From a virus, in the UHGV virus genome UHGV-1461890: a DNA stretch of 41,432 bases; one strand, given 5' to 3'. The first letter of the stretch is position 1. Each line of letters begins with the position of its first letter. Below are positions 18,901 to 21,900 of this stretch, piece after piece. The translations under genes were made by a program, and so were the position numbers. The notes under the pieces were generated by a model. That model worked only from the letters and a program-made list of their open reading frames with translations, searched no databases and had not been told where the DNA came from.

Positions 18901-21900
18901 GGATAGAACAGCTAAGGTTGAAAAGGCTCAGAAAGAGGTTCAAAAAGTTGTCTCAGGCAAGAATGGTATAGAAGGTAAGGTTCACTTTAAAGGTGATGAA
19001 CTTGCTTTAAAAGAGGTACAAAGGGAATCTTTGAAGCGAATGGGAATACTCTCGGAGGTTCTTGGTTTAAATTTCCATGTGTTTGAGTCTTATGTAGATA
19101 AAAATGGCAAACGAGTATATAAAGACACCGATGGAAAGATAAAAAAAGCTCCTAATGGCTTCTACAAAAACGGAGAGATTTACATTGACCTTAATGCCGG
19201 TAAAGATGGACAAGGCATAATGATTTACACCGTTGCTCACGAGCTTACCCATTGGATTAGAGAATGGTCTCCTGCTAAGTTTAAGGTCCTTGCCGATTTC
19301 CTGTTCGAACAGTATGGCAAAGGTAATCGTAATGTCAACAAGTTAATTGAGGACCAAATTACAAACGCCAAAAACAATGGCAGAACCATTGATTATGATA
19401 CAGCCTATGAAGAGGTTGTAGCTGACTCTATGGAGACAATGCTTTCCGATGATAATGTTCTTGAAAAAATAATGCTCTTAAAGTCTAAGGATGAAAGCAT
19501 TATCAAGAAAATCGGTGAGTTCTTTGAAAAAATCATCAATAGCTTTAAAAATCTGATGCAGAAATATCCTCCCGAAACTACCGAGGGTAAACTTGTATCA
19601 CAGATGAATGATGCTTTTGAGGAACTTCAAAGTCTCTTCGCTGAGGCCCTTGTAGATGCAAGTAACAATTATCAGGCTAATAAGGGACAAAAAAACACCA
19701 CCTCTGAGGGTGATGTGAAGTTACAAGCAAGAGAACTACAACGAAAAGACCCTACCACACTCAAAGAGGACGAGCTTACAACCTTGCTTGAGTATACAAA
19801 AGATAAAGTTTTGTCAGATGATACATATATTCCTGTGAGAATAAATACTCCTCAAATCCTTATTGCTTTTGCTAAAGAATTTGGGTATACATTAGAAAAT
19901 CATCCTCTTGCTATGCAAGTATATAAGGCAAGACAAGCTCTTTCAAATGAGGAAAATTGGGATGGAGATTATCAAGATAAGCCTCACGATTTGTCACCTG
20001 AAGAAGTGATAGGTATTATTCGAGCTATGAATAATCCTTCACACCTTGTTTTTCAAACCGAAAATGAGCGCTTTGCTGAGATTGTAAAGTTCGAAAAAGA
20101 AGGTAGCAAAGAAAAAGCGTATGCTATAGTAGATTTTTCAGATGTAAATAAAAACCCTGACCTTATGAATGGATACAAAGGTGGTAAATACAATATTTTA
20201 GTCACAGTTTATCCTTCAGAGGATGCTGCCGACCTGAAAAGATATTTATCAAACAAAAACCATAAGGTGCTAACAGGTGAACAAATGAAAAAGAAAGGTC
20301 TATCGCAAGGAAGCTACGGCGGCAACACGCCCTCGCTATTAAACGATTCACCTTTCTTCGAGGATAGTATACCACAAACTTCCAAAAAAAGTCAAGAAAA
20401 ACTGTCTGGTAGAGAAAACTTTATTGGCGAAAGAAACCTCGAAGACTTTGCAGAGGCTAAGGATACTGAAGGTAAAACCTTGTTCCAATATCGTGCGATG
20501 GAGTCTGACGAAGATGTTTATCGAGAAATGCTTAAAACTGCAAATATAATGAGTGATTCAGAGATAAATGCTTTGTTTGACACCGTTGATAGAGCAATGG
20601 ATATTATTAAGGATAATCTTGAAATCCTTGACTATGCTTGGGAAACCGACATTGACGATAGAGCGTTTAATCCTGTGAAGAAAAATACTGATAAGTTATA
20701 TCAGGTAAGCGTAGACTTTTCTACTTTGTGCAGAAAGAGACTTTTGCAGCAGGCTATTCAGGCTCATTTGCAAGAGGCGCTTAACAGACCACTTACAAAA
20801 AATGAAGGAATTGCTATAAGAGATGCTCTTATGACCATTCAGGAAGAAGGCAAACAAATTGAGATAGCATGTGCGCTTTGCTATGTTGAGTCTGCAAGAA
20901 TGAAATCCCCGGCACAGATAAAAAGGTTTATTGATGGTAGAGAAACTGTTATTAAAAATTATTTTGCAGGAAAGTCGGCTGAGGTAAAGGCTCAACTTAA
21001 AGAAGCTGAGGCAAAAGCAAGAGAAAGACTTGGTGTCTATGATACTCCTCTTACTAAACTTCCAAGTAAGGCTCAAAAAGACATCCGAGGCGCAAAAAAG
21101 GATGTAATATCTTCCTATGTTCCTTCTGCTAAAGAGCAAGAACTTATTGAAATTGCAAAAGGAATGTCGGTTAATGATTTTGTTACTCCAAAGGGTCTTG
21201 AAACTCTTATAAAAAAATATCCTGATTTATTTGATGCGTATGCAAGTTTCATAGTAAATGCTACTCATTCAAAGGGCATTGAAAACGATACTTGGTGGAG
21301 AGCAGGAGACTCTAAAAATATTGGAGATACTTTGATTGCGAATATGAATGCCGAGAATGGCCTTCGCTCACAGTCATGGTCTGACTTCCAAGTTATCCAC
21401 CTACTTGACTATATGGCTGCAACCATTGAGCTTTCCACAAGAAAAGCCAAGATGCAAACGTATACCAAGGTGCCTGACTTTGTAGAACTTATGGGTAGCA
21501 CAGGTGAAATGATTAACCTATCTTTAATTCCTACAAGGAATTTTAATGGTACTCTTGATTTTGATGGTATTGAAGGTATGGAATTTGAAGAGTCTTTGAG
21601 GCTTCGTGACAAATACCATGCTACAGCAGGTACTATTGCTATAGGTGTAGATAATGTTCAAATACAAATGCTCCTTGATAGTATGAATATTGACTACGTT
21701 ATTCCTTATCATAGGTCAGGTATGGCAAAAGCAGTTCGTAAGGCGATGCATATACCTACTTGGACAGAGTATGAAAATTATCAAAGTGAGAAAAACCTCT
21801 CAAGAGATGCTGCGAGGGAACAGGCTAAAAAGTATGGTGTAAAACTGCTCTCAGAAAGCGATTCTAACTATCAAAAACATCCTAACTTCTCTGATTGGTT

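What the first reader, a model, noticed from the sequence alone, without database searches (positions are those of the whole stretch)
19000..19500. Zincin-type metallopeptidase motif in the giant protein
IYTVAHELTHWIREW contains a canonical HExxH, followed about 40 residues later by acidic residues (AYEEVVADSME) that could supply the third zinc ligand. This suggests a second, independent catalytic activity in the same polypeptide.
Basis: partly seen in the sequence, partly recalled or inferred. Interest (0 to 1): 0.55.

Follow-up and report, generated by a model that had tools for sequence, protein, structure and literature searches.

The report
Zinc protease domain in giant phage protein
The HExxH motif is real and marks an apparently intact zinc-protease domain inside a 3,782-residue multi-enzyme protein of a temperate gut phage; this kind of domain is already known, but a repeated linker motif suggests where it may cut the giant protein into separate effector modules.

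Summary
The 3,782-aa ORF (15917-27265, +) has a single HExxH (H1108-E-L-T-H1112; 0.04 expected by chance), and E1166 lies 54 residues after the second His. H1108, E1109, H1112 and E1166 are invariant in 158 domain copies from a family of about 3,340 protein clusters. In 149 further copies from viral and bacterial contigs, HExxH is always kept and the Glu is replaced only twice, by Asp.

The same ORF carries an ART-PolyVal domain and lies in the virion gene module of a temperate Oscillospiraceae-type phage. It is therefore a divergent member of the known zincin peptidase domains (MPTases) of phage polyvalent proteins (Iyer 2017).

One result goes beyond the finding. A motif, K/R-Y/F/L-S/Q-x-R-D/E, recurs five times at module boundaries. 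It is enriched 18-fold in homologues and flanks the ART, PBECR and nucleotidyltransferase cassettes. These are candidate self-processing sites. Actual cleavage is untested.

The parts
15917..27265 (+). Giant ORF, 3,782 aa: a phage polyvalent protein. It sits between a tail gene and the tail-fibre gene, where podoviruses carry their ejection proteins.
   Evidence: ORF list and translation. Neighbours by PHROGs are terminase, portal, major head protein, internal virion protein, tail protein and tail fibre. The exact protein is on an ENA metagenome contig, and its only precomputed Pfam hit is ART-PolyVal.
18974..19696 (+). Conserved zincin-like peptidase (MPTase) module, aa about 1020-1260. It comprises the core fold plus three long C-terminal helices.
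   Evidence: A profile of this region finds 3,340 cluster representatives at E<=1e-3 and 1,175 at E<=1e-30. The domain usually lies at about aa 800-1000 of proteins 3,000-3,900 aa long. AF2 model of aa 1010-1260: pLDDT 82, pTM 0.77.
18980..19474 (+). Catalytic core fold, aa 1022-1186: helix, five-stranded sheet, HExxH helix, two inserted helices, Glu helix.
19238..19252 (+). HELTH (H1108, E1109, H1112): two predicted zinc ligands and the catalytic base.
   Evidence: Invariant in 158 of 158 and 149 of 149 domain copies. Lies in model helix 81-96. Aligns to ArdC H201/E202/H205.
19403..19435 (+). Glu-helix motif AYEEVVADSME. E1166 (nt 19412-19414) is the predicted third zinc ligand, E1165 the predicted His-orienting residue, and D1170 is also conserved.
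   Evidence: A1163 and E1166 are 100% conserved, D1170 94%, E1165 91%, E1173 90%. The motif aligns with ArdC A-F-E228-E229-L-I-A-E in a low-scoring sub-alignment. In the ArdC crystal structure E229 binds the metal and E228 orients H205.
19718..19735 (+). Linker motif 1, KLQARE (aa 1268-1273). It directly follows the peptidase module, in a low-confidence (probably disordered) stretch.
   Evidence: Regex and HMM scans. Residues 1249-1260, just upstream, have pLDDT<50.
20399..20416 (+). Linker motif 2, KLSGRE (aa 1495-1500). It closes a 227-aa module that has a weak MuF_C/PBECR match.
   Evidence: MuF_C E=0.057 at aa about 1351-1442. Equivalent inter-motif modules of homologues hit MuF_C at 4.5e-19 and 1.3e-17.
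22400..22417 (+). Linker motif 3, KLSDRD (aa 2162-2167), starting 26 aa before the ART domain.
   Evidence: Across 41 ART-bearing homologues, 23 motifs lie within 25 aa upstream of the ART start.
22478..22978 (+). ADP-ribosyltransferase domain (ART-PolyVal), aa 2188-2354: the second catalytic activity.
   Evidence: Pfam PF18760, E=1.8e-21, 77.8 bits against a cut-off of 31.2.
22994..23011 (+). Linker motif 4, RYSERD (aa 2360-2365), starting 6 aa after the ART domain.
   Evidence: best motif-HMM score, 20.3 bits. Across 41 ART-bearing homologues, 32 motifs lie within 25 aa downstream of the ART end.
23450..23467 (+). Linker motif 5, KFQDRD (aa 2512-2517), just before the conserved C-terminal region.
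   Evidence: phrog_22978 (function unknown) covers aa 2520-3594 at E=1.2e-184.

Best explanation
Residues about 1020-1260 of the giant protein form a catalytically intact zincin (gluzincin-type) metallopeptidase domain. H1108 and H1112 on the active-site helix and E1166 on a later helix would hold a zinc ion. E1109 would activate the water, and E1165 would orient H1112. The domain is a divergent, currently unmodelled member of the zincin-like 'MPTase' domains that Iyer et al. (2017) found to be the commonest domain of phage and plasmid polyvalent proteins.

The protein is encoded where podoviruses carry their ejection proteins, in a temperate phage of gut Clostridia (Oscillospiraceae-type hosts). 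It is therefore most likely packaged in the virion and delivered with the DNA.

The most likely job of the peptidase is to cut its own polypeptide at the five K/R-Y/F/L-S/Q-x-R-D/E linker motifs. That would release the MuF-C/PBECR-like module, a 667-aa unknown module, the ADP-ribosyltransferase, a short coiled-coil piece and the 1,270-aa C-terminal part as separate products.

Shown: the motif, its conservation, the fold, the co-resident ART domain, the gene context, and the linker motif with its position at module boundaries. Inferred: metal binding, proteolysis, virion packaging, and the idea that the linker motifs are the cleavage sites. My estimates are about 0.9 that it is a zincin-fold hydrolase domain, about 0.75 that it is an active peptidase, and about 0.45 that it self-processes at these motifs.
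For: Motif and conservation:
- There is one HExxH in 3,782 aa, against 0.043 expected.
- H1108, E1109, H1112 and E1166 are invariant in 158 copies.
- HExxH is kept in 149 of 149 further copies, and the Glu position is E in 147 and D in 2.

Fold:
- The AF2 core model has pLDDT 89.5 and zincin topology.

Sequence links:
- Sub-threshold Pfam hits of family members fall mostly on zincin families: Peptidase_M78 15/43, DUF6782 15/43, MPTase-PolyVal 12/43, eCIS_core 10/43.
- A profile search of PDB sequences gives CapP and ArdC as the two top-ranked of four non-significant matches (E=1.1).
- hhalign against ArdC-type domains gives P=2-3e-5 and probability 74-76%. A reversed control gives P=0.27. A recognised polyvalent-protein MPTase clade scores the same against ArdC, P=3.3e-5.

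Polyvalent, virion-linked context:
- ART-PolyVal is in the same ORF, which lies in the structural gene module.
- The window is a temperate phage, and related prophages sit in Oscillospiraceae and other Clostridia MAGs.
- A comparable 2,811-aa polyvalent protein of phage phi24B was found in virions by mass spectrometry.

Self-processing:
- The motif occurs 5 times against 0.057 expected, and only in this ORF within the window.
- 110 homologous giants hold 137 copies against 7.6 expected.
- The rate is 11.5-fold higher than in other ORFs of the same 80 viral contigs.
- The motif brackets the ART domain in most ART-bearing homologues.
- Inter-motif segments are single effector domains: ART, PBECR5 at 1.6e-58, MuF_C, NTP_transf_2.
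- The motif is absent from 12,168 aa of four ART-bearing polyvalent proteins that carry other MPTase types.
- Iyer et al. independently predicted autoprocessing by these domains.
Against: - No curated model (Pfam, NCBIfam) matches the window's own sequence. The best PHROG hit, 'metallo-protease', has E=0.0074.
- I could not inspect model coordinates, so the ligand geometry is unverified.
- Peptidase activity has not been demonstrated for any MPTase of this kind that I read about. ArdC showed no degradation of the one candidate tested, and its E229A mutant was fully functional.
- N4 vRNAP, ArdC and TraC1 are transferred unprocessed, so self-processing is not general.
- The linker motif was defined after I saw it. 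Homologous positions are not independent events.
- 33 of the 110 homologous giants have no strict match.
- Nothing links the motif physically to this active site. It could be a junction or docking motif, or the site of another protease.
Confidence: 0.55

Rival explanations
1. The domain is an active zincin peptidase, but it acts as an effector in trans. After ejection it would cleave host proteins, such as defence or regulatory proteins, as IrrE/ImmA-type and CapP peptidases cleave their partners. The linker motifs would then be flexible junctions between exchangeable cassettes.
For: The catalytic residues are invariant. The weak sequence and fold links include IrrE/M78 and CapP. Iyer et al. 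list effector action as an alternative. Other known MPTase-bearing proteins (N4 vRNAP, ArdC, TraC1) travel uncleaved.
Against: This does not explain why a degenerate motif conserved at the protein level marks the module boundaries only in proteins with this peptidase family. The domain always sits inside the giant protein at a fixed position. No host target is suggested by any data here.
Confidence: 0.25
2. The domain helps the virion cross the thick Gram-positive wall by cutting peptidoglycan peptide stems or cross-links during ejection.
For: The authors of the phi24B study proposed this role for the metallopeptidase of their virion polyvalent protein. The gene lies among tail and ejection genes. 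The likely hosts are Gram-positive Clostridia.
Confidence: 0.07
3. The zincin fold is kept but the chemistry is not proteolysis. It could be a YbeY-like metal-dependent RNase or another HExxH hydrolase or oxygenase, or the site could bind metal for a purely structural or encapsidation role.
Against: As I recall, YbeY uses a three-histidine HxxxHxxxxxH site, not HExxH plus a distal Glu. The complete gluzincin signature is invariant here, including the general-base Glu and the EE pair. Most neighbours are peptidases.
Confidence: 0.08
4. The HExxH is a chance occurrence in a long protein and marks no functional site.
For: HExxH is a short pattern and the protein is long.
Against: The chance expectation is 0.043 per protein. 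The motif is invariant in more than 300 homologous copies down to about 30% identity. It lies on a confidently predicted helix in a zincin-like fold.
Confidence: 0.01

Closest known systems
Zincin-like MPTase domains of polyvalent proteins (Iyer, Burroughs, Anand, de Souza and Aravind 2017; Pfam PF18818 MPTase-PolyVal; ArdC C-terminal domain, PDB 6i89/6sna)
   Different: It does not reach the Pfam threshold, and the window's own sequence gives no PF18818 hit at all. It has a beta-hairpin insert in the sheet and two extra helices (about 40 residues) between the HExxH helix and the Glu helix. It has its own extra conserved positions: ES1057-58, NG1080-81, D1091, AG1094-95 and WSP1117-19. It co-occurs with a linker motif that the other MPTase types examined lack.
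M34 family: anthrax lethal factor and Pro-Pro endopeptidases (PPEP-2, PDB 6fpc; PPEP-3, PDB 9g0j)
   Different: Sequence identity is 12-13%, and no Pfam hit to M34/ATLF appeared among the listed families. Those are secreted toxins or adhesin-release enzymes, not virion cargo.
IrrE/ImmA/CapP-type peptidases (Pfam Peptidase_M78)
   Different: Those are stand-alone regulators that cleave a cognate repressor or effector. No gathering-level match was found here.
Autoprocessing multi-effector toxins (MARTX cysteine protease domain) and viral polyproteins, as functional analogues only
   Same: The proposed logic is the same: one built-in protease releases several effector modules from one delivered polypeptide at short sites between modules (my own knowledge, used as an analogy).
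   Different: The protease folds and chemistry are unrelated. Cleavage is proven for those systems and unproven here.

Membership tests
Zincin / gluzincin metallopeptidases (MEROPS clan MA(E)) | HExxH on an alpha-helix | tested here: met
   HELTH at aa 1108-1112 lies in model helix 81-96. It is invariant in 158 and 149 copies.
Zincin / gluzincin metallopeptidases (MEROPS clan MA(E)) | Third metal ligand is a Glu on a downstream 'glutamate helix' | tested here: met
   E1166 is invariant and lies in model helix 139-156. In a low-scoring sub-alignment it lines up with ArdC E229, the crystallographic ligand.
Zincin / gluzincin metallopeptidases (MEROPS clan MA(E)) | Alpha/beta fold with a mixed sheet preceding the active-site helix | tested here: met
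Zincin / gluzincin metallopeptidases (MEROPS clan MA(E)) | Binds zinc and hydrolyses peptide bonds | not testable with these tools
   Needs biochemistry.
MPTase-PolyVal (Pfam PF18818) / ArdC C-terminal domain | Scores above the Pfam gathering threshold | tested here: not met
   The window sequence gives no hit at E<=10. 12 of 43 relatives match at E<=1, best 6e-4.
MPTase-PolyVal (Pfam PF18818) / ArdC C-terminal domain | Profile-profile similarity to ArdC-type domains | tested here: inconclusive
   hhalign probability is 74-76% and P=2-3e-5 over the strand plus HExxH helix. The reversed control gives P=0.27. Another accepted MPTase clade scores the same against ArdC. This fits the same superfamily but not clearly the same family.
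Polyvalent proteins of phages and conjugative elements (Iyer et al. 2017) | Several unrelated enzymatic or effector domains in one polypeptide | tested here: met
   Zincin domain plus ART-PolyVal, and a weak MuF_C match. Homologues carry PBECR5, MuF_C and nucleotidyltransferase cassettes.
Polyvalent proteins of phages and conjugative elements (Iyer et al. 2017) | Encoded with virion and packaging (late) genes of a portal-terminase phage | tested here: met
   Terminase, portal, major head protein, internal virion protein, tail and tail-fibre genes surround it.
Polyvalent proteins of phages and conjugative elements (Iyer et al. 2017) | Packaged and delivered into the host with the DNA | not testable with these tools
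   Inferred from gene position and from phi24B gp47 being found in virions.
M34 lethal factor / PPEP peptidases | Sequence-level family membership | tested here: not met
Peptidase_M78 (IrrE/ImmA) | Scores above the Pfam gathering threshold | tested here: not met
   15 of 43 members give sub-threshold hits, best E=0.0011. The window sequence gives none.

The most novel reading that the evidence does not exclude
The peptidase and the K/R-Y/F/L-S/Q-x-R-D/E linkers form a self-contained polyprotein-processing system. A temperate gut phage would deliver one 430-kDa precursor, and its built-in zincin would cut it at defined sites into a set of exchangeable effector cassettes (ART, PBECR RNases, nucleotidyltransferase and unknown modules). 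This would be the first defined cleavage motif for the MPTases of polyvalent proteins. It would also turn the autoprocessing prediction of 2017 into a directly testable mechanism.
Probability: 0.4. Interest if true: 0.65.

Novelty: new member of a known kind. Interest (0 to 1): 0.4.

Why it matters
Polyvalent proteins are thought to be the 'first-strike' cargo that phages and plasmids inject with their DNA, yet no experimentally assigned role for their commonest domain, the zincin-like peptidase, turned up in what I read.

This family is large: about 3,340 clusters at 50% identity, mostly in giant proteins from viral contigs and gut Clostridia MAGs. In every search run here it was invisible to Pfam, NCBIfam and named PHROGs, so many giant proteins of gut phages carry an unannotated protease.

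The linker motif gives a concrete hypothesis that is cheap to test: which bonds are cut, and which modules are released. It also provides a practical rule for splitting these giant ORFs into functional modules when mining new effectors.

Tried and rejected
- **Searches with the window's own sequence.** Pfam, NCBIfam and a PDB sequence search gave nothing useful. The one 'significant' PDB hit, 7rdr, is a designed repeat protein that matches a low-complexity helix and is spurious.
- **Foldseek against the PDB.** No significant match.
- **AFDB50 fold library.** Not available.
- **Cultured-phage and plasmid collections.** No close relatives of the peptidase module or the C-terminal region, only faecal metagenome fragments; the ART domain alone has ~25-30%-identity relatives in cultured phages.
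- **R388 record for ArdC.** The accession was absent. I rebuilt an ArdC-type alignment from 14 plasmid loci instead.
- **Literature search for the linker motif strings.** It returned only unrelated matches.
- **Iyer et al. clade with a conserved Asp three residues after HExxH.** I checked whether this domain belongs to it. It does not: no such Asp is conserved here, and the strand His is not invariant, being Tyr in the window.
- **Linker motif as a DNA-level recombination joint.** I rejected this as the main explanation. The five copies differ in amino-acid sequence, so conservation acts on a degenerate peptide pattern and not on a nucleotide stretch.

Full report
**1. The observation**

The window holds a 3,782-codon ORF at 15917-27265 on the + strand. 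The peptide IYTVAHELTHWIREW is aa 1103-1117. HELTH is aa 1108-1112 (nt 19238-19252), and AYEEVVADSME is aa 1163-1173 (nt 19403-19435). It is the only HExxH in the protein, and 0.043 would be expected from the protein's composition. The acidic stretch begins 50 residues after the second His, not about 40. Otherwise the description is exact.

**2. Conservation**

A word-indexed search with aa 1010-1260 found 13 fragmentary relatives, and every one that spans the site keeps HExxH.

A profile of that alignment, searched against 1.84 billion cluster representatives, found 3,340 proteins at E<=1e-3 and 1,175 at E<=1e-30. In most, the domain lies at about aa 800-1000 of a 3,000-3,900-aa protein.

In 158 domain copies from the best 150 proteins:
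- H1108, E1109, H1112, A1163 and E1166 are 100% conserved.
- D1170 is 94%, E1165 91% and E1173 90% conserved.
- Further near-invariant positions are E1057, S1058, N1080, G1081, D1091, A1094, G1095, G1098, T1105, W1117, S1118, P1119, K1121 and Y1133.

I then took copies directly from DNA: 80 IMG/VR loci and 80 GTDB genome loci, down to about 30% identity. All 149 full-length copies keep HExxH. The Glu position is E in 147 and D in 2.

**3. Fold**

**4. Sequence links to known families**

No Pfam or NCBIfam model matches the window's own sequence. The only PHROG hint is phrog_87, 'metallo-protease', at E=0.0074.

I scanned the 43 family members individually against Pfam at E<=1. The families hit by the most members are all zincins:
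- Peptidase_M78, 15 members
- DUF6782 (putative metallopeptidase), 15
- MPTase-PolyVal, 12 (best E=6e-4)
- eCIS_core, 10
- YgjP-like, 4
- also Peptidase_M91, Tox-MPTase4 and Reprolysin_3

A profile search of PDB sequences ranks CapP and ArdC first, both at E=1.1. The ArdC alignment places HELTH on H201-E202-x-x-H205 and AYEEVVAD on A-F-E228-E229-L-I-A-E. In the ArdC crystal structure the metal is bound by H201, H205 and E229, and E228 orients H205. That predicts E1166 as the third ligand and E1165 as the His-orienting residue.

I also compared the family profile with 14 ArdC-type domains taken from plasmids using hhalign. The probability was 74-76% and P=2-3e-5, confined to the last strand and the HExxH helix. 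A reversed control gave P=0.27. A recognised MPTase clade from the polyvalent proteins of phages F116, USP_18 and Dartukuta scores the same against ArdC, P=3.3e-5.

The domain is thus about as far from ArdC as accepted MPTase clades are from one another. It belongs to the same superfamily but forms a separate family that no curated library models.

**5. Context**

The same ORF carries Pfam ART-PolyVal at aa 2188-2354 (E=1.8e-21).

The genes around it are small and large terminase, portal, major head protein, an internal-virion-protein homologue and a tail protein upstream. Downstream are a tail fibre with a BppU_N-type N-terminus, an endolysin, a serine integrase, RecE/RecT and a DNA methyltransferase. 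This is a temperate phage of about 41 kb. The giant gene sits where P22-like podoviruses carry their ejection proteins; that comparison is from my own knowledge.

Relatives lie on 35-45-kb viral contigs and in MAGs of Oscillospiraceae, Acutalibacteraceae, Faecousia and other Clostridia from human and ruminant guts. Cultured-phage and plasmid collections hold essentially nothing similar.

Iyer et al. (2017) defined polyvalent proteins. They found the zincin-like MPTase to be the commonest domain of these proteins and proposed that it processes them. A 2,811-aa polyvalent protein of the podovirus phi24B has been found in virions by mass spectrometry.

**6. A recurrent linker motif**

While reading the sequence after the peptidase module, I saw the same short pattern at several places. 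The pattern [KR][LYFM][SQ]xR[DE] occurs at five positions:

| Position (aa) | Sequence | Location |
|---|---|---|
| 1268 | KLQARE | directly after the peptidase module |
| 1495 | KLSGRE | after the MuF-C/PBECR-like module |
| 2162 | KLSDRD | starts 26 aa before the ART domain |
| 2360 | RYSERD | starts 6 aa after the ART domain |
| 2512 | KFQDRD | just before the C-terminal region |

Shuffling predicts 0.057 occurrences. The pattern was defined after I had seen it, so I tested it on independent data:
- 110 homologous giants hold 137 copies against 7.6 expected.
- In 80 IMG/VR loci the rate is 0.26 per 1,000 aa in the giant ORFs and 0.0225 in all other ORFs.
- In the window it occurs in no other ORF of 100 aa or more, in any frame.
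- Across 41 ART-bearing homologues, 23 motifs lie within 25 aa before the ART start and 32 within 25 aa after its end.

The extended consensus is roughly D-[IV]-[KR]-[YFL]-S-[DE]-R-D inside otherwise variable, polar flanks. The residues just before site 1 have pLDDT<50.

Segments between consecutive motifs in homologues fall into 20 types. Those that Pfam recognises are single effector domains of the polyvalent-protein repertoire: ART (37 segments), PBECR5 (E=1.6e-58), MuF_C (4.5e-19 and 1.3e-17), a Pol-beta-type nucleotidyltransferase (1.5e-7) and PBECR3 (weak). The window's own segment 1268-1494 has a weak MuF_C hit, E=0.057.

Four ART-bearing polyvalent proteins from cultured phages carry other MPTase types (HELQH and HEMIH). 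They contain no copy of the motif in 12,168 aa.

Neither the Iyer paper nor a wider literature search mentions such a motif.

**7. Interpretation**

The domain is, with high confidence, a zincin-fold hydrolase with an intact gluzincin site. It is maintained by strong purifying selection in a large family of giant phage proteins. It is a new and divergent member of a known kind, the MPTase of polyvalent proteins.

The mechanism I favour is self-processing at the five linker motifs, either in the capsid or after ejection. This would yield:
- an N-terminal 1,267-aa piece, comprising the Gly/Ala-rich region plus the peptidase
- a 227-aa MuF-C/PBECR-like module
- a 667-aa unknown module
- the 198-aa ART
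- a 152-aa coiled-coil piece
- a 1,271-aa C-terminal piece

The motif's position, its specificity to this family and the cassette contents support this reading. No evidence here shows cleavage, and other MPTase-bearing proteins (N4 vRNAP, ArdC, TraC1) are known to travel uncut. The ArdC peptidase site is also dispensable for its known function.

The main rival is an effector role against host proteins. A cell-wall role, a non-peptidase chemistry and a purely structural role are less likely.

**8. Verdict**

As a finding it is largely expected for this class of protein, hence a moderate score. The linker motif is the part worth following up.

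Noticed in passing
window 19718-19735, 20399-20416, 22400-22417, 22994-23011, 23450-23467: A recurrent linker motif, K/R-Y/F/L-S/Q-x-R-D/E, lies at module boundaries of the giant protein. 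It is enriched 18-fold in 110 homologues, brackets the ART domain, and is absent from polyvalent proteins with other peptidase types. These are candidate processing sites.
   Followed up: yes
window 22478-22978: An ART-PolyVal ADP-ribosyltransferase domain (aa 2188-2354, E=1.8e-21) lies in the same ORF. Only 41 of 111 homologous giants carry it, so it behaves as an exchangeable cassette.
   Followed up: partly
window 19967-20242: A weak MuF_C (PBECR RNase-like) match at aa about 1351-1442 (E=0.057), inside the first inter-motif module. Equivalent modules in homologues match MuF_C strongly.
   Followed up: partly
window 20399-22417 (aa 1495-2167): A 667-aa inter-motif module with no family match. 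It has conserved Cys-containing motifs (DFSTLCRKR ... ACALCYVESARM) that also appear in fragments P0004 and P0008. It may be an uncharacterised enzyme.
   Followed up: no
window 17200-17830 (aa about 430-640): A Gly/Ala/Ser-rich, low-charge stretch (G+A+S fraction 0.36, charged fraction 0.15). It is reminiscent of the membrane-active parts of tape-measure and ejection proteins. There is also one strongly hydrophobic segment at aa 3529-3552.
   Followed up: partly
window 23474-26698: The C-terminal 1,075 aa match phrog_22978 (function unknown) at E=1.2e-184. This is the most conserved part of the giant protein after the peptidase.
   Followed up: no
window 1-50 and 41380-41432: Both ends of the window lie in the same short GGCTCT/GGCGAT-type tandem repeat, which would encode Gly-Ser-Gly-Asp runs. 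This suggests a circular or complete genome whose assembly broke inside a repeat. There is no exact terminal overlap, and no tRNA genes were found.
   Followed up: partly
window 32111-33607 (-), 36561-38353 (+), 39486-40199 (+): A large serine integrase, a RecE/RecT recombination pair and a DNA methyltransferase mark the element as a temperate phage. Related prophages sit in Oscillospiraceae and other Clostridia gut MAGs.
   Followed up: partly
proteins P0014, P0015, P0143 and P0076 (homologues): Some homologous giants carry two copies of this peptidase domain (P0014 at 364-686 and 859-1159; P0015 with two copies in 5,240 aa). Others carry additional, different HExxH modules as inter-motif cassettes (LLHELIHAC in P0143, GHEAFHFW in P0076).
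   Followed up: no
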